In this document: positions 10,943 through 19,022 of the stretch, piece after piece
How the letters are laid out: the number at the start of each line of letters is the position of its first letter
Position numbering within the stretch: the stretch's first letter is position 1
Source: Mobula hypostoma
Lineage: Eukaryota
Length of the DNA: 64,000 nucleotides
Assembly (NCBI RefSeq): GCF_963921235.1
Contig: NC_086108.1
Span: 81,718,001-81,782,000 of the forward strand
Direction of reading: 5' to 3'
Notes under the pieces: generated by a model
Database searches by the model: none
Seen by the model: the letters and a program-made list of their open reading frames with translations, nothing else
What the model was told of the DNA's origin: nothing
Translations under genes and position numbers: made by a program

Positions 10943-11142
10943 TGTTATGTTACTTCTGTTTAAACATACCATGGGTTAACAGTAAAAAATCAAATTCTGG
11001 AAGGATTAGAGAACTTTTATTTACAGTAATGAACAAACATGTCTTAACCCAGCCACGTGTTGGAACATTCTGGCAATCCTGCGCATGCTCAGTGCTCTGT
11101 CCAGTCATGTACTGGCACATCATTGCACGTGATATCACCACA
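10943..11142 (-). repeat. 3' LTR (200 bp)
   Basis: Direct repeat of 18825-19022. By hand count the two differ by about 14 substitutions and one 2-bp indel. Confidence 0.92.
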
Positions 11143-11338
11143 TCTTCCTTTCTTTAGAAAGAAAAACAATTAACAATGTTAATCAAAGCATATCTATATC
11201 AGATAACTGAAACTCTGAAGTTGGTTCTTTCTTAAAGCCTTTGCGATTCTTTCTTAACACCACTCCCTCCCTGTTTGGACCATGTATGATCTGGTCTGTG
11301 TCCATGTGTTCCTTTTATCTTGTATCCTTACTTTGTCT

Positions 11339-11798
11339 CCTTGTCCTTTGGACAAACATCTCCTTAGATCAGTCAATTCACATTCCACTTCCATTTGTAA
11401 TGAAATACGAATCTTCTTTTCTTCATCTAATTCATTCATTAACTGTGTAATCTCTTTTTTAATGCTGAGACTTCATCATTTCAATAATACTTCTCAATTC
11501 CTTCACTTGTGCTTTCACTTCTTCCTTATACTGTGCCCACTGTGAGCGTTCTTGCTCTAGGCGGTGATGAAACTGAATCTCGTATTCTCTGTGTCTCTTT
11601 CATTATCGCTTGCATTGAAGCAACCTCCTCCTGCCATTGCTTTTTCACATCATCAGTTGCTTCCTGTTTCGTCGTCTGAGGCACTGCAGCTACTGCTTTT
11701 ATATTCTCCATGTCAGCATTTGCCTCCATGAGCTGGACCTGCAGTCGAGTTACATCACCTTCTGCAGACTGGAATGCAACATTCTGTCGCTTCAGCTC
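11339..11798 (-). pseudogene. RABEP1: Captured RABEP1 (Rabaptin-5) N-terminal coiled-coil fragment in two pieces (about 11798-11522 and 11388-11339)
   Basis: LKRQNVAFQSAEGDVTRLQVQLMEANADMENIKAVAAVPQTTKQEATDDVKKQWQEEVASMQAIMKET/REYEIQFHHRLEQERSQWAQYKE ... ECELTDLRRCLSKGQ matches recalled human RABEP1 LKRQNAVLQAAQDDLGHLRTQLWEAQAEMENIKAIATVSENTKQEAIDEVKRQWREEVASLQAVMKETVRDYEHQFHLRLEQERTQWAQYRESAEREIADLRRRLSEGQ. One frameshift lies near 11591. Confidence 0.9.
11383..11524 (-). pseudogene. SH3KBP1: Captured SH3KBP1 (CIN85) C-terminal coiled-coil fragment inserted within the RABEP1 fragment
   Basis: [47 protein letters not shown] matches recalled human CIN85 [47 protein letters not shown]. A 1-bp insertion lies at about 11461. 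Confidence 0.85.
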
Positions 11799-12533
11799 TG
11801 TGTCACTATCCAAGACAAAAATTCTTTTCACCAAATTAAGTCTTTCACAGTCAGATAAACCCAGAATTGACTGTACATTTTTTGGCACGACCACAAATGA
11901 AAGCGTATGCACAATATTTTTGTGTGATATCTTTGCCACGCATGTTCTTTTAACTGGAATATCTGCACCTGAATACTCTTTTTTTAATTTTATTTTTATT
12001 TGGATAAGGAATTCACAAATATCATGTACTTTTTTCACACATATAACCTTTTCCATTATTTTATATGTATAAAACTATAATTATTTATACATTCTTAAGT
12101 ACACATTGAGATGATATAAAAGGAAATTAAACACTTAAATAGATAATTATGTACTGTGGTAATTCTAATCTATTAGGCTAAGTAATGGTATTAGTTGTTA
12201 AGAAAAATAGTAATAATAGTTTCCATATAACTCTTCTGGACCATTTCCACTGGTCCAAAATGTTGTATGTAAGGCTATGTAACAACCATTGTAGGTGTTT
12301 ATAATCCTAATTTGTTCATGCTTGCTCCTGTCCGCAGACATAATTATCCAATCCCTATGTACTTATTTACTTAATTTTTCCATTTTTTTATCCCTTTCCC
12401 AAATCTTTCCCTTTACTTGTGTTAATTCTCTATTTTCCAAAAGAAAACAAAAAAAAAGACATTTAGACTAGGGGTGCTTACGTTAGCAATATTACTGTGT
12501 TGATGAGAAGAGCAGTATAAATCATTAGGAGAG

Positions 12534-15500
12534 TCATCTAAAGTCTGCTCGCATTGGGGTTATATATTCAATCCATTTATTCCAGATTTGATAAAATTTT
12601 TCTTTTTGAATTCTCAGGGAGTAAGTCAACTTTTCCATTTTAAATATTTCCAAGATAATTTCGTGCCAATCTTCTAATGTAGGTGGTATTGGATTTAGCC
12701 ACCTTCTAGTGATTGATTTCTTACTTGCCGGTAAGAGGACCTGCAGAAACTTTATATCTTCCTTCTGTTCAAGAAACAATACATGCCCCAAATAGAGCGT
12801 CTCAAAGTTCAGAGGTATCTGGGACCTAAGTACCTTAACTAATGTTCTAATGTTCCTTCCCAATATAGACTTAATTTAGGGCAATCCAAGAAAATATGAA
12901 AATGATTTGCCTCCTTGGAGCCGCACCTTCTCCAACACGTCACGTTTGTATCTTTATATTTTTCCTGATATGGGGTCTTGAAGTATCTTATAATGTTTTT
13001 CCAACAATGTTCTCTCCAAGTCAAAGAATTAGTCGAGGACCATTGAAAGCTGCAGATTTTCCCCCAAGCCTCCTCTGAAAGTACCAACCCCGCTTCTTTC
13101 TCCCACTTCTCTTTAATATACAGTGTATTTACATTTTTAGCATGGGAGAGTGCATTATATAATCGAGAAACTGATTTACTAGGTATTGAACTGTAAGCCG
13201 AATTCAGAATCTTGAAAAATTCTAATTCTACTGTTGATAGGTCTGTATATCTGCAACTCTGGTTAACATAGTTTCGTACTTGAAGGTACCTAAAAAAGTC
13301 ATTGTGTTCTAGGCCATGTTTGTCCTGCAGGATTTGGAAACTTTGTAATACTCTTTTATCTATAAATGAGAGGTAGGTAGTAAGACCTTTCTTTATCCAT
13401 AGCTCAAATCTTTTATCTCCTCTGTTGGGAAGGAATTCGGTATCATATGCACACCATCTAAAGAGTTTTAACATGTTATTAATTCCACATGAATTAACCA
13501 CCTTCTGCCATACTTTTAATGTAAGATTTATCCAACTGTTTTTAATTTTTTCCAACTGGGCCATCAATCCTTTGTCAGCTATTGAGGCCTGTAGAGGAAA
13601 ACTGTCAACTAATCCAAATTCTATTTCCTTCCATCTAGCCTTATATTCCCTATTACACCAATATAACAGAGGGGTTATCTGTGAGGCATAAAAATAATTT
13701 CTCAGGCAAGGAAGAACCATACCTCCTCCTTCCTTCCCTAACTGTAAGGTGTTATATCGAATTCTAGGTTTCTTTCCTTGCCAAATGAAGCGAGAAATCC
13801 ATTTGTCCCATTCCCTGAATTGATTATCATCCACCTCCACCGGTAAAGTACGGAAAAGATACAATAACCGAGGAAGAATATTCATTTTTATAGTATTTAT
13901 CCTTGAATTTAAACTTAGAAAGGGGATAAGATTCCATCTATGCATATCTGCTTTTATCTCTGAGATTAATGGCCCATAATTTACCTGTGACAGTGTTGAA
14001 AGATCCTTCGGCAGGGTTATTCCTAAATATTTTAATGATTTAGCTTCCCACTTAAGATCGTATGTATCCTGCAATTTTTTGGATGGTGTATAATTTAGGG
14101 ACATAACCTGCGTTTTCTTCACATTTATTTTATAACCTGATATTTTCCCAAAGTCATCAAACAGTGTAAACAATCCTATAAATGATTTTTCTGGTTCACT
14201 CAGATAGACCAAAACATCATCTGTGAATAACGTCACTTTCTGTTCAATCCCTGCCACCTTGATGCCTTTTACGATTTCGCTCTGTCTTATTAGTTGGGCA
14301 AGCGGTTCAATATATAACGCAAAAAGGAGAGGAGAAATTGGGCATCCCTGTCTAGTGCCTCTCTCTAAGATGAAGGAGTCAGAGAGGTCCCCATTTATCT
14401 TAATTCGGGCTGTAGGGCTGTCATATAGAGTCTGAATTACTTTAATAAACTTTTCTTGAAAGCCGAATCTTCCTAACACTCTGTATAGGAATGCCCAACT
14501 AACCGAATCAAAAGCTTTCTCAGTGTCCAATCCTACTACCATTGTCTCTGTCTCGTTCTTATTAACCTGTTCTAATATGTGCAGAGTTCTCCTTATGTTG
14601 TCCTGTGTTTGTCTTTGTTGAATAAATCCAATCTGGTCTAAATGGATTAGACCAGGTAAAGGCATTTCCAATCTGCGCGCTATTATAGATGTAAATAGTT
14701 TGTAATCTAAATTAAGAACACTAATTGGCTGATAATTGCCACATTCTAGTTTATCTTTACCCTCTTTAGGAATAACTGAAATAATCGCTTCTGTCCAGGA
14801 AGGTGGAGTTTCTCCTCTCTGCAAGATCCAATTAAAGATGTTAAGTAGTAATGGGGCTAACTCTGTCTTCAGGGACTTGTACCATTCTGAGGTAAACCCA
14901 TCAGAACCCGGGGACTTTCCAGCCTTTAACCTAGAGATGGCCACGTTCAGTTCTTTGACAGTTACTGGTTCTAATAAACTTTCATTTTGTAAATCTGTAA
15001 GTTTAGGTAGATCTAAAAAATTCAATACACTGTCTATATAGGGCTCATTGGGGGCCCGGGGTTGGGAGTACAGCTCTCGATAATATGTTTCAAAACTCTC
15101 TTGAATTTTCCCTATTGTACTCTCCACAAGCTTTGTCTTTGGATTCTTTATTTTATGAATTGTATTGTCTGCTTGTTGTTTTCGTAATTTATATGCTAAT
15201 AATCTAGCTGATTTACCTTCTACTTCATAATTCTTTTGTCTCAGGTAAAGAAAATTTCTTTGAGTTTCCAATGTATAAATATCGTCAATTTCACTTTGCA
15301 ATTTCCTAATTTCCTGTTTTCGATTTGAATTACTTTTGTTGCTATCTACAACTTGAAGTTGTTTTAATTTTCCTTGAAGGTCTGCTAATTTTTGTGCATT
15401 GATTTTTTTCATGTGAGTGGTAATGGAAATAATTTTCCCTCTCAGTACAGCTTTCAATGTATCCCATAATATCACTGGTGATGTTTCTCCCGTGTCATTA

Positions 15501-16320
15501 AGGTCTAGATATTCTTTGATTTCTCCCCTTAATCTCTCCATTACTTTCGGGTTATTGAGTATATGTGAGTTTAGCCTCCATAGTGTTTTCCTCATTTTCC
15601 TTTCCAGGATTAGAGACATAGAGACTGGGCTATGATCCGACAGATCAATTGTTGCAATATTACAGTTTTTTATCCTGAGTCTATCTGTATTAAAGATAAA
15701 GAAATAGCCTATCCTTGAATAGGCTGAATGAGGGAAAGAGTAATGTGTATAATCTTTACTAGTAGGGTGTAATTCCCTCCAGACGTCTATAATTCCCAAC
15801 TCCTCCATCAATGAGTTCATTTTCTGAGTCAGAGGTTTATTCTGAGTAACTATTCTTGAAGCATCTAATCAGGATTTAATCTAATATTAAAATCCCCTCC
15901 ACAAATTACTACCCCTGGAGAACTGACCATTAGGTCAAAAATGTGTCTATAAAATGACCATTCACAACCTGGAGGAGCATAAACATTCAGCAATGTTATT
16001 TCTGTACCTTCTATTCTTCCTGTGATTTTTACAAACCGTCCTTCTTTGTCTTTAGTCTCTGAAATATGTTCATAATTAAGAGTACTTGATATTAAAGTAG
16101 CTACCCCTCTTCTGTGACTCAATTTATATGATGAATAAAATACATGCTTAAAGCCCATTCTTTTTAATTTTCCATGTTCAGATTGGCTCATATGTGTTTC
16201 CTGGAGGAAAGCTATTTGTACCCTCTCTTTTTTCAATTTAGACATAATCTTATTTCTTTTAATTGGATTCAAAACCCCATTAACATTATAGGAAATTATT
16301 TTTACCAATTCAGTTTGCAT
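12534..16320 (-). pseudogene. L1 ORF2 (APE endonuclease, reverse transcriptase, C-terminal zinc knuckle) with two frameshifts
   Basis: EN motifs SYNVNG, FLQETH, LLNVYAP, GGDFN and SDH; RT motifs GTRQGCPISPLLF, LFTDD and KYLG; knuckle CWRRCGSKEANHFHIFLDC. Frame changes at about 15870 and 12850. Confidence 0.93.
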
Positions 16321-16682
16321 TTTTCATTAGTAGAAAAAAAACACTCTCTATTTCTAACCAAACAGTAAGCAATCCCTTCTCAACAGTAAACCAAGACATA
16401 TAACCACACCCTAGACATTTTTGAACGTGTAACATTTGAAAATTTTTCCCGACTTCCCACAGTGAGGCCTGAGCACCGACCCGCCTCAGTTCAGAGGGAT
16501 AACCTCTATCTTCACCCTGTGTTAGAGAGCCCTCAGCAGTTTGAATAATCATAGAGAATTTTCTCCTATTTATGTCTCGACCATATTGCTATCATTCAAG
16601 TTATTCCGCCTAGTTTATCTTCAGTTACCAGTTTTCATTTTACCTTTAAGTCCGATTTACTCTTTTCAGTCATTTCTCTTAA

Positions 16683-17669
16683 TTAATCTGTATTCTCTGT
16701 ATATTCGCCTCTGAATATTTGCAGCTTTTCCTTGTAGTTTGACACTCTGGTTGGAGTGGAGCGTCCTCGCCCCACTAACTGCCATGACTTCTGCCGAATC
16801 CTCTCCAGTAGCGACTCTGGTTGGGTGATAACTTTAATAGGTAGTCCCCGGTCCACCAGGTCCGACGTTGCCTCCTCCACCGTAACGTAAGTTTTTGTCC
16901 CTTCGTCGTAAAAGACTCTCAGCCGAGCTGGATACAGGATCTGGAATCTGATGTTGTTTTCCTTCAGGACTCTCCGTGTTTCCGTATATTCCTTCCGTCT
17001 GGCAAGAATCCCTGGTGCGTAGTCGTGATCTAAACTGATTTTACAGTTGCTCCACATGAAACCTTTCTTTTGCCATGCCCTTTTAAGCACCTCTTCCTTC
17101 GTTCTGTAACGGAGAAATCTGACCAGAATTGATCTGGGCTGGGCGCCTGCCAGGGGCTGTGGTGCAAACGCGCGGTGAGCCCTTTCTATCTGTAGGTCTT
17201 TTGCGGCCGGTGTATCAAGGTTCTCTCTAAGCAGCTTCTCTATGAAGGGAATCATCAATCCGGGTTTACCTTCGATTCCTTCGGGAACTCCGTAGATCCT
17301 CACATTTTCCCTTCTCGAGCGGCCTTCTTGATCTGTTAGTTTCCACTGGAGCCGGTCTTGCAGCTTCAGCATTTCTGCTATCACTTCCTCAACGTTTTGT
17401 AGCTTCTCTTCAATTCCAACAATCCTCGCTTCGGCTTCATCTATCCGCGAGTTAGTTTTTACTATTTCTCCTTTAATATCTTGCAGCTCTTTGCTGTTAT
17501 CTTGTCAGAACTCGCGAATCTCTCCGAGAATCAAAGACAGAGTCACCGATTCCCCCTCATTATCTCCGTCCTGGCTTGCCATGGGGGAGCTAGGCCCGTC
17601 GCCTTGCTGCGTCTCTTTATGTTTATCAGCCTTCGGAGCGGACTTTTTAACCTTGTTCTTAGACATCAT
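16683..17669 (-). pseudogene. L1 ORF1 (coiled coil, RRM, CTD) with one premature stop
   Basis: The ATG at 17669 is in frame with EGRSRRENVRIYGVPEG...IERAHR...PRSILVRF...YPARLRV. An in-frame TGA lies at 17505-17507 (likely CGA>TGA). Confidence 0.9.
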
Positions 17670-17816
17670 GCTTGCCCCTTTTATTAATATAGTTATGCAA
17701 TATTAAGTATTTGTCTAAATTCGATTTTGGGGCAGTTTACCTTCTTTTTTGTCAAAGAGACCTTTTCCTTACGCCGCCATTCCCTTGATGACCCGGAAGT
17801 CCACACCTGAATACTC

Positions 17817-18727
17817 AGTCACTTTTATATTTCTCTGATGTAACTTCGGTCTTGGCTTTAAAGCATTAAGCTCAGATTCTGCAAGAACATTTACTTGCGC
17901 TCCAGTATCAAGTTTAAACAGAATATTGTTTTGATTCACTTGCAACGGGATAGTCCAATCATTCTTTCTTTGTTTATTTTCACAAGGCACATCTATATAC
18001 AATTCCTCACATTCATCTTCAAACACAGCATTTACTTGTTTCAATTTATTTTCCTCCTTTCTACTTTTACAACGGTGTGAAAAATGATTAGTCTTACCGC
18101 AGCCATTGCAAATTTTGTCATATGCGGGACACTGATTTGGACGATGTTCCCGCGCACAGCGATCACATGACTTCTTTCTTTCCAGTGCTGTCTTGCTCTC
18201 TGTCGGTTTCATTGACGTGTTATTATATTTCTTGATATATTTGCGCTTTTTTACAGCGTTTACATTGCAGTTTTCGACAAAAAGCTCTTCAGCCTGCACC
18301 GTCACAGTCTCAGAAGCTTTGCAAAGAGCCAAAGCTTTTTCAAAATTTAAATCTTGCACTCTCAACAGTCTACTATGCTTTCTTAACTCAGTAACATACT
18401 GATCAATTGTTTCAGCAGCTCTGCGCACATGTGAAGAATTTTTATCCCTCATACGTTAAATTACGCATAGGTATACAAAATACTTCAAATCTGTCCATTA
18501 TCAACTTTAAATTGAAATTATCTCCATCTTCAAAGACAAAATTATTAATATACCTCTACTGTATCATTCCCGATTACAAGGAGCAAAAGCGCAGCTTTGT
18601 TTTTTTCTAAATTTTCTTCATAATCGATCACTAATAAGTATAGTTCAAACTATTGCTTGAAGATCCTCTAATTCTCCGCTACATTGCCAGTCAGCTGAAG
18701 TTTTGGTGGGGGTTGTAAACCTTCCAT
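17817..18727 (-). pseudogene. Degraded Gypsy gag and aspartic protease N-terminal half (protease continues at 11965-11799)
   Basis: MEGLQPPPKLQLTGNVAEN start, Cys/His knuckle CPAYDKICNGCGKTNHFSHRC, and catalytic FKLDTGAQVNVL. After removing the L1 the frame continues EYSGADIPV...SILGLSDCERLNLVKRI. Confidence 0.88.
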
Positions 18728-18810: not shown

Positions 18811-18824
18811 CACTTCTGACACCA
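18811..18824 (-). other. Primer-binding site, probably tRNA-Leu
   Basis: cacttctgacacca on + matches the recalled 3' end of vertebrate tRNA-Leu (…CACUUCUGACACCA) and abuts the 5' LTR. Confidence 0.75.
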
Positions 18825-19022
18825 TGTTATGTTACTTCTGTTTAAACATACCGTGGGTTAACAGTAAAGAATCATATTCTGGAAGAATTAGAGAACTTTT
18901 ATTTACAGTAATAAACAAACACATCTTAACCCAGCCACACGCTGGAACACTAGCAATCCCGTGCATGCTCAGTGCTCTGTCCAATCATGTACTGGCACAT
19001 CATTGCACGTGATATCACCACA
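18825..19022 (-). repeat. 5' LTR (198 bp)
   Basis: TG...CA termini, direct repeat of 10943-11142, adjacent to the PBS. Confidence 0.92.

What the first reader, a model, noticed from the sequence alone, without database searches (positions are those of the whole stretch)
11383..11524. A second host gene (SH3KBP1/CIN85 coiled coil) inserted in the middle of the RABEP1 fragment
Seen: RABEP1 similarity stops at WAQYKE and resumes about 135 bp later at ECELTDLRRCLSKGQ, losing only about 1-2 codons. The insert reads [47 protein letters not shown]. Knowledge: this matches the C-terminal oligomerisation coiled coil of CIN85 (recalled), and both proteins act in endocytic or endosomal traffic. Inference: the A-B-A mosaic needs at least four switches (Gypsy>RABEP1>SH3KBP1>RABEP1>Gypsy). 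The GAA- and GTGGAA-containing junctions are candidate microhomologies. This is two-gene exon shuffling inside a retroelement.
Basis: partly seen in the sequence, partly recalled or inferred. Interest (0 to 1): 0.9.

Follow-up and report, generated by a model that had tools for sequence, protein, structure and literature searches.

The report
Ray jumping gene carrying nested host-gene pieces
This is one dead copy of a crippled jumping-gene family in a ray genome that carries an intron-free piece of one host gene (SH3KBP1) nested inside a piece of another (RABEP1), and the one-gene and half-mixed relatives still lying in the genome show how such mixed cargo was probably put together step by step.

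Summary
Observation confirmed. Window 11383-11524 is 98.5% identical to this genome's SH3KBP1 exons and lacks two of its introns. The RABEP1 around it lacks a 9-kb intron. The host RABEP1 exon is unbroken at the insertion point, so this is not an alternative exon. The mosaic sits in a roughly 2.3-kb non-autonomous Gypsy-type LTR element, split here by an L1. I fetched 44 copies of this A-B-A form, 15 RABEP1-only, 4 SH3KBP1-only and 30 A-B elements without the return to RABEP1; most A-B copies carry a third spliced gene, SLU7. The junctions lie on short microhomologies. Best reading: two separate mRNA captures, then recombination between cargo-bearing elements, then amplification. The order of the last steps is unresolved. 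The cargo decays neutrally (N/S 1.17; 4 of 44 frames open), and in-frame joins are expected from base composition, so no function is supported. Two stingray genera carry the same join. The mechanism is known (LTR-mediated retroposition, Tan 2016; maize Bs1). The scan noted other captured genes in this genome before, but not this family. The value lies in the surviving intermediates.

The parts
18825..19022 (-). 5' LTR (198 nt)
   Evidence: Direct repeat with 10943-11142; 184 of 198 aligned bases identical; flanking 5-bp target duplication matches at 4 of 5
18811..18824 (-). Primer-binding-site-like stretch directly behind the 5' LTR (tRNA-Leu type recalled, not tested)
   Evidence: Seen in sequence
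17795..18727 (-). Broken gag and first part of protease
   Evidence: Pfam gag-asp_proteas E 8.8e-4, below the curated cut-off; zinc-knuckle-like cysteine pattern seen; 87-90% identical to an uninterrupted sister copy
11977..17794 (-). Later L1-type LINE insertion that splits the element; not part of the family
   Evidence: An uninterrupted sister copy maps to both sides with an overlap of about 20 nt, read as a target duplication, and an A-rich tail; ORF1- and ORF2-like frames (L1 label from own knowledge)
11800..11976 (-). Protease tail, joined to RABEP1 by a deletion that removed the start of reverse transcriptase
   Evidence: RABEP1-only copies L032, L033, L060, L064 keep the reverse-transcriptase start; the A-B-A copies and L040 share the deletion join
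11521..11799 (-). RABEP1 piece 1 (host exons taken as 3 and 4, spliced; exon join near 11597)
   Evidence: About 95% identical to host exons at C71:53174343 and C71:53165279; the 9-kb intron between them is absent (exon numbers recalled)
11383..11524 (-). SH3KBP1/CIN85 C-terminal coiled-coil piece, spliced across two host introns (joins near 11460 and 11395)
   Evidence: Left join: 4-nt exact microhomology, 10 of 12 with mismatches, at 11524-11521. Right join: 7-nt exact at 11389-11383
11336..11389 (-). RABEP1 piece 2 (rest of the same host exon)
   Evidence: 91% identical to host; ends at the same RABEP1-to-element join as in the 15 RABEP1-only copies and shares two non-host bases with most of them
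11143..11340 (-). Integrase C-terminal remnant, short untranslated part and purine tract
   Evidence: Shared with all forms of the family; integrase-tail label from own knowledge, not tested by a profile
10943..11142 (-). 3' LTR (200 nt)

Best explanation
Passive cargo assembled in steps by reverse-transcriptase template switching. (1, shown) A Gypsy-type element swapped its RT-RNaseH-integrase core for spliced RABEP1 mRNA, giving RABEP1-only elements. (2, shown) A related element separately captured the 3' end of spliced SH3KBP1 mRNA, giving SH3KBP1-only elements. (3, inferred) RNAs of the two crippled elements were packaged together by a helper and recombined at short matches, giving RABEP1-then-SH3KBP1 (A-B) elements. 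The join seen in the window may have come from a longer A-B form by a 63-nt deletion between near-repeats. (4, inferred) A further switch at a 7-nt match back to a RABEP1-type RNA restored the RABEP1 tail and gave A-B-A. A sister branch took up a piece of SLU7 instead. (5, shown) The mosaic was then copied as a non-autonomous element and now decays neutrally. It does nothing for the host as far as can be seen.
For: Host introns are absent from all three cargo genes. The forms exist side by side: 44 A-B-A, 29 short A-B, 1 long A-B, 15 RABEP1-only and 4 SH3KBP1-only copies fetched. Of 40 copies with the exact left join, taken in list order, 25 were A-B, 12 A-B-A and 3 cut inside B. A-B copies L074, L089, L102 and L040 leave SH3KBP1 at the same point as SH3KBP1-only copies L043, L044 and L046. 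L040 carries the A-B-A-type upstream deletion, yet its gag groups with the one-gene elements (80-86%) and not with A-B and A-B-A (73-78%), as expected of an early intermediate. Of the three longest exact RABEP1/SH3KBP1 matches, two are used by real joins and the third lies outside the captured RABEP1 piece. Marker bases are shuffled between forms (L076, L097, L019), so these elements do recombine. 10 of 17 A-B-A copies with both LTRs in the locus have perfect 5-bp target duplications and 3 more match at 4 of 5. Decay is neutral: 404 replacement changes against 346 expected at the silent rate, 37 stops against 30, and 14 of 61 indels a multiple of three.
Against: No base inside the 141-nt insert separates an element donor from the host mRNA. 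The long A-B form is one copy (1 match genome-wide at up to 3 mismatches), and its join carries 3 changes. None of the 15 RABEP1-only copies has the upstream deletion, so one expected parent was not seen. Private divergence is similar in all forms (about 2-5%), so age does not order them. The return lands one base from the departure point, which fits a single there-and-back excursion equally well. Only 4 of 40 listed SH3KBP1-upstream matches were fetched.
Confidence: 0.62

Rival explanations
1. One-round excursion. Reverse transcriptase copying a RABEP1-only RNA jumped at the 7-nt match onto SH3KBP1 RNA (host mRNA or a SH3KBP1-only element), copied about 130 nt and jumped back where it had left. 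The short A-B forms arose later by ordinary homologous recombination of A-B-A with SH3KBP1-only elements.
For: Only one RABEP1 base is lost. The same RABEP1 site resembles both ends of the insert. A-B and A-B-A share gag and LTR type and are of similar age. Tan 2016 reports more than two switches within one retrocopy (passages).
Against: It needs one more event than the serial route to explain L040 as well. Only 4 exact matches of 7 nt or more link the retained SH3KBP1 piece to the captured RABEP1 piece, so a precise return is not unlikely under the serial route either. A base change found in 37 of 44 A-B-A copies was seen in 1 of the 28 short A-B copies that cover the site, so any such recombination would have had to use an early A-B-A form or cross over in the first 36 nt.
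Confidence: 0.28
2. The fused frame (Gag-protease-RABEP1-SH3KBP1-tail) was selected, either because added coiled coils or a long open frame helped the element's RNA to be packaged or kept stable, or because the host uses one copy.
For: Both joins keep the frame. The mosaic forms outnumber RABEP1-only copies among exact pattern hits: 66 left-join, 15 unbroken including the host exon, and 3 hybrids, of 84. Replacement changes run below the silent rate in A-B (0.70) and RABEP1-only copies (0.75). Stingray gene models P0017 and P0018 read through the join.
Against: A-B-A copies show no constraint (1.17; 4 of 44 frames open). All 8 exact matches of 7 nt or more between the two genes are in frame by composition (by hand), so frame keeping at these joins needs no selection. 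The low ratios rest on few silent transversions (26 and 9) and on related copies that share changes. A test on dead copies cannot see selection on the once-active masters.
Confidence: 0.07
3. DNA-level event: a processed SH3KBP1 cDNA or pseudogene was patched into a chromosomal RABEP1-only copy by break repair or gene conversion, and that copy then founded the family.
For: Microhomology joins and the loss of one base also fit end-joining repair (own knowledge).
Against: No poly(A) tract or target duplication at the insert. The many other microhomology joins and cargo swaps in this family point to a recurrent reverse-transcription process.
Confidence: 0.03
4. Native alternative exon of ray RABEP1, or a generic coiled-coil resemblance.
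For: None found.
Against: The host RABEP1 exon is continuous across the insertion point, as is electric-ray RABEP1 P0019. The insert is 98.5% identical to SH3KBP1 exons on another contig.
Confidence: 0

Closest known systems
LTR-mediated retrocopies of animals (Tan et al. 2016, PMC5131818; abstract and passages read; supplements not opened)
   Same: A partial spliced mRNA replaces part of the element's ORFs; microsimilarity at the joins (median 6 bp there); chimeras of two or more genes (Drosophila CG4799_CG11924_r, mouse four-gene Super retrocopy); secondary retroposition as non-autonomous elements; often in frame.
   Different: Here one gene is nested inside the other, dozens of copies were verified, and one-gene and half-mixed relatives survive, which points to cargo exchange between elements. 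The passages read describe no such series of intermediates; the unread supplements may.
Maize Bs1 (seen only through Tan 2016 and the review PMC13317346, passages; the Elrouby and Bureau 2010 paper was not held)
   Same: LTR element with pieces of three host genes in one chimeric frame; all copies share the switch points.
   Different: Bs1 has 1-5 copies and is reported as transcribed, translated and possibly functional. This family has many more copies, several cargo combinations, and decays neutrally.
Abnormal template switching between co-packaged retrotransposon RNAs (Veju TRIM, BARE-2; review PMC13317346, passages)
   Same: Chimeras form between two different RNAs in one particle and then found new subfamilies.
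   Different: Those are plant cases that exchange element or unknown sequence; here the exchanged modules are identified host exons.
Replication-defective retroviruses with two captured host genes, such as avian E26 gag-myb-ets (recalled; no call)
   Same: Helper-dependent genome in which gag is fused in frame to pieces of two host mRNAs in place of pol.
   Different: Those fusions were selected for an effect on cells; no selection is seen here, and this element shows no env.

Membership tests
LTR-mediated retrocopy (Tan 2016) | Host piece lacks introns | tested here: met
   One RABEP1 intron and two SH3KBP1 introns are absent from the window copy
LTR-mediated retrocopy (Tan 2016) | Lies between two LTRs and replaces part of the internal ORFs | tested here: met
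   LTR pair 92.9% identical; cargo lies between the protease (or RT start) and the integrase tail; uninterrupted copies are 2.1-2.35 kb
LTR-mediated retrocopy (Tan 2016) | Microsimilarity at the switch points | tested here: met
   Both RABEP1/SH3KBP1 joins: 4 nt exact (10 of 12) and 7 nt exact. The element/host joins were judged against sister elements only, because no autonomous parent was fetched
LTR-mediated retrocopy (Tan 2016) | No poly(A) tail or target duplication at the host piece (not L1-made) | tested here: met
   None at either end of the insert or of the RABEP1 piece
LTR-mediated retrocopy (Tan 2016) | Further cycles of retroposition with shared switch points | tested here: met
   44 copies with the same joins; 10 of 17 have perfect 5-bp target duplications
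LTR-mediated retrocopy (Tan 2016) | Co-transcription from the LTR | not testable with these tools
   Only contigs could be laid, and none from a run on record as RNA
Ty3/Gypsy, Mag-like clade (label recalled) | RT-RNaseH-integrase order and RT phylogeny | not tested
   The core is deleted in all copies fetched and no autonomous parent was sought. Only a sub-threshold protease hit, 5-bp target duplications and the RT-start-before-integrase-tail order support the label
Bs1-like functional chimeric gene | Chimeric frame kept under constraint | tested here: not met
   N/S 1.17, stops at the neutral rate, 4 of 44 frames open; a single domesticated copy among unfetched loci is not excluded

The most novel reading that the evidence does not exclude
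Myliobatiform rays host a long-lived pool of helper-dependent Gypsy elements that trade captured host exons among themselves like modules (RABEP1, SH3KBP1 and SLU7 here; the scan's unchecked notes add SUDS3, RNF213, USP35, RBM25 and MYH16). Codon-biased microhomology keeps the joins in frame, so the pool works as an in-frame exon-shuffling engine whose whole assembly path survives, and some Gag-fused mosaic may have been favoured or is still expressed.
Probability: 0.3. Interest if true: 0.75.

Novelty: new member of a known kind. Interest (0 to 1): 0.5.

Why it matters
How multi-gene LTR chimeras are built, in one round or by successive recombination of cargo-bearing elements, is usually inferred from a lone end product. 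Here one-gene, two-gene, nested and three-gene forms survive in tens of copies and in more than one ray genus, so the order can be tested with a full family tree. The case also shows that microhomology between coiled-coil coding sequences is mostly in frame, so an in-frame chimera is not by itself evidence of function. In practice the copies are being annotated as RABEP1-like or uncharacterised genes in stingray proteomes (P0017, P0018, P0003).

Tried and rejected
Native alternative exon and generic coiled coil: rejected. Functional link through endocytosis: not supported. One search was meant to count right-hand joins, but the pattern was badly set; its 32 hits are not used as a count. One search (protein search with the third insert) found nothing among 24 candidates; SLU7 was identified instead. 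Expression: no RNA holder listed, which says nothing either way. Four runs were laid as contigs; one contig of organism B bridges the left join (11439-11579), and depth was not used. Donor test on marker bases inside the insert: uninformative. Ordering the forms by divergence: no separation. Absolute dating was not attempted, as no rate was at hand. A table of the reading frame at all family joins, with a chance model, was not obtained, so frame keeping is tested only for RABEP1/SH3KBP1 matches. Protein searches returned element-type chimeras only from two stingray genera, among 17 and 16 hits; this is weak evidence on range. Literature: 5 searches found no paper on this family; the one paper holding RABEP1, SH3KBP1 and retrotransposon looks unrelated from its listing. 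Subscription papers are not covered. The scan's own look-up by sequence found nothing. Duplicate loci (L034-L037, L039) were dropped before the counts.

Full report
Observation. Translation of the minus strand shows RABEP1-like sequence from 11799, a foreign block at 11524-11383, and RABEP1-like sequence again down to about 11336. Pfam gives Rabaptin at E 3.7e-26 for the first part. The block's 3' part hits only human SH3KBP1 coiled-coil structures, and a longer copy of it retrieved 15 proteins with SH3 domains, 13 of them named SH3KBP1 by a source, among 17 hits. The host genes were then found in the same genome. SH3KBP1 lies on C18, with exons at L047:114-364, L047:1452-1515 and C18:80909830 onward. 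RABEP1 lies on C71, with the two relevant exons 9 kb apart and later Rabaptin exons behind them. The block equals positions 187-327 of the spliced SH3KBP1 piece at 98.5% and crosses both exon joins. The host RABEP1 exon is continuous across the insertion point.

Setting. The mosaic lies in an LTR element on the minus strand: LTRs at 19022-18825 and 11142-10943 (92.9% identical), broken gag and protease, cargo, integrase tail. An L1-type LINE later inserted at 17794-11977. Uninterrupted copies are 2.1-2.35 kb and lack the RT-RNaseH-integrase core, so they needed a helper (inference). The Gypsy and Mag-like labels rest on recalled motifs and were not tested by an RT tree.

Family. A search with the mosaic gave 40 of 40 scored matches over its whole length (472 candidates). 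All 30 fetched were A-B-A. A pattern on the left join gave 148 matches at up to one mismatch. Of the 84 exact ones, 66 were the RABEP1/SH3KBP1 join, 15 were unbroken RABEP1 (one is the host exon) and 3 were hybrids (counted by hand). I fetched 40 of the 54 exact join or hybrid hits not already held, in list order: 25 were A-B with no return, 12 A-B-A and 3 cut inside B. In all, 44 A-B-A, 29 short A-B, 1 long A-B (L040), 15 RABEP1-only and 4 SH3KBP1-only copies were verified. The last four came from 40 listed matches (342 candidates) to SH3KBP1 sequence upstream of the insert. These are lower bounds. Of 17 A-B-A copies with both LTRs in the locus, 10 have perfect 5-bp target duplications and 3 match at 4 of 5; LTR identity is 87.7-95.4%. 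The mosaic was therefore integrated as a unit many times, long ago. Gene models from two stingray genera carry the same upstream deletion and left join (P0017, P0018), and P0017 carries the right join too. That stingray's SH3KBP1 differs from the host gene here, so the mosaic predates that split, unless it moved between species.

Joins. The left join has 4 exact shared bases, within a 10-of-12 match. The right join has 7 exact shared bases. One RABEP1 base is lost and the frame is kept. Of 8 exact matches of 7 nt or more between the two host pieces, one is the right join and one of the two 8-nt matches is the join of L040; the other 8-nt match lies beyond the captured RABEP1 piece. All 8 are in frame (by hand), so frame keeping follows from the shared codon make-up of two coiled-coil sequences.

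Mechanism. Shown: two separate captures, since the 15 RABEP1-only copies share one exit join with A-B-A, and 3 of 4 SH3KBP1-only copies share one exit join with L040 and with A-B copies L074, L089 and L102. Shown: recombination among subfamilies, since marker bases are shuffled and A-B and A-B-A share a gag and LTR type distinct from the one-gene elements. Inferred: the order. L040 has the upstream deletion typical of A-B-A (0 of 15 RABEP1-only copies have it), unbroken RABEP1 past the insertion point, a longer SH3KBP1 piece, and a gag of the one-gene group. A 63-nt deletion would turn it into short A-B, and one switch at the 7-nt match would turn that into A-B-A. This serial route needs three events. 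The rival, a single there-and-back excursion followed by homologous recombination, needs four, but it explains the one-base return neatly. L040 is a single copy, no base in the insert identifies the donor, and the forms are of similar divergence. I put the serial route at about 0.6 and the excursion at about 0.3.

Function. In 44 A-B-A copies, with CpG and shared sites set aside, replacement changes were 404 against 346 expected at the silent rate, stops 37 against 30, indels 14 of 61 a multiple of three, and 4 of 44 host-derived frames were open. The A-B and RABEP1-only sets gave ratios of 0.70 and 0.75 on fewer sites, which I note against the neutral reading but do not consider strong. A sister branch added SLU7, a splicing factor, which argues against a shared endocytic theme. 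Expression could not be judged.

Comparison. The case meets the five testable features of LTR-mediated retroposition as described by Tan et al. 2016 (PMC5131818; abstract and passages; supplements not seen), which already reports multi-gene chimeras, in-frame products and secondary retroposition. It resembles maize Bs1 (through that paper and review PMC13317346) but fails the test for a constrained chimeric gene. Five literature searches found no report of this family. The scan's unchecked notes list other captures in this genome, including a two-gene SUDS3/RNF213 case, and none for these genes.

Verdict. Real, correctly identified, and a new member of a known kind. Its value is the surviving series of intermediates and the three-gene sister branch, which make the assembly order testable. 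Interest 0.5.

Noticed in passing
L109:2701-2889; L110; L113: A sister subfamily carries a third host gene: about 190 nt of SLU7 behind the SH3KBP1 piece, in the same frame in L109 and L110. Of the 29 short A-B copies, 26 have this tail type (L074, L089 and L102 do not). PDB hit to human SLU7 E 0.0017; the host exon (L114:1435-1518, 89% identical, GC donor) lies 6.5 kb behind the Pfam Slu7 exons on C21, and the piece runs past both exon ends.
   Followed up: yes
L045:3399-3627: An SH3KBP1-only copy with a different, further-upstream entry into SH3KBP1: a second capture or a longer original one.
   Followed up: partly
L052-L059: RABEP1-only copies fall into several subfamilies with different upstream deletions into RABEP1 (positions 93, 138, 153, 198); five share the join at 153.
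   Followed up: partly
P0003, P0006: A stingray's SH3KBP1-only element keeps three residues and a glutamate that the listed SH3KBP1 of the same stingray lacks, which suggests the capture predates those host changes (gene models unchecked).
   Followed up: no
window 11977-17794: Near full-length L1-type LINE with ORF1 and a 1009-codon stretch of ORF2, inserted into the protease gene of the element.
   Followed up: partly
L013:2518-2811; L015:2719-2899; G000:C66:33008906 and 33009072: Some loci hold partial or tandem repeats of the cargo next to a full copy.
   Followed up: no
window 1-64000: The rest of the window is dense in dispersed LINE- and SINE-like repeats (23 direct-repeat families, 58 inverted pairs); no host gene was looked for.
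   Followed up: no
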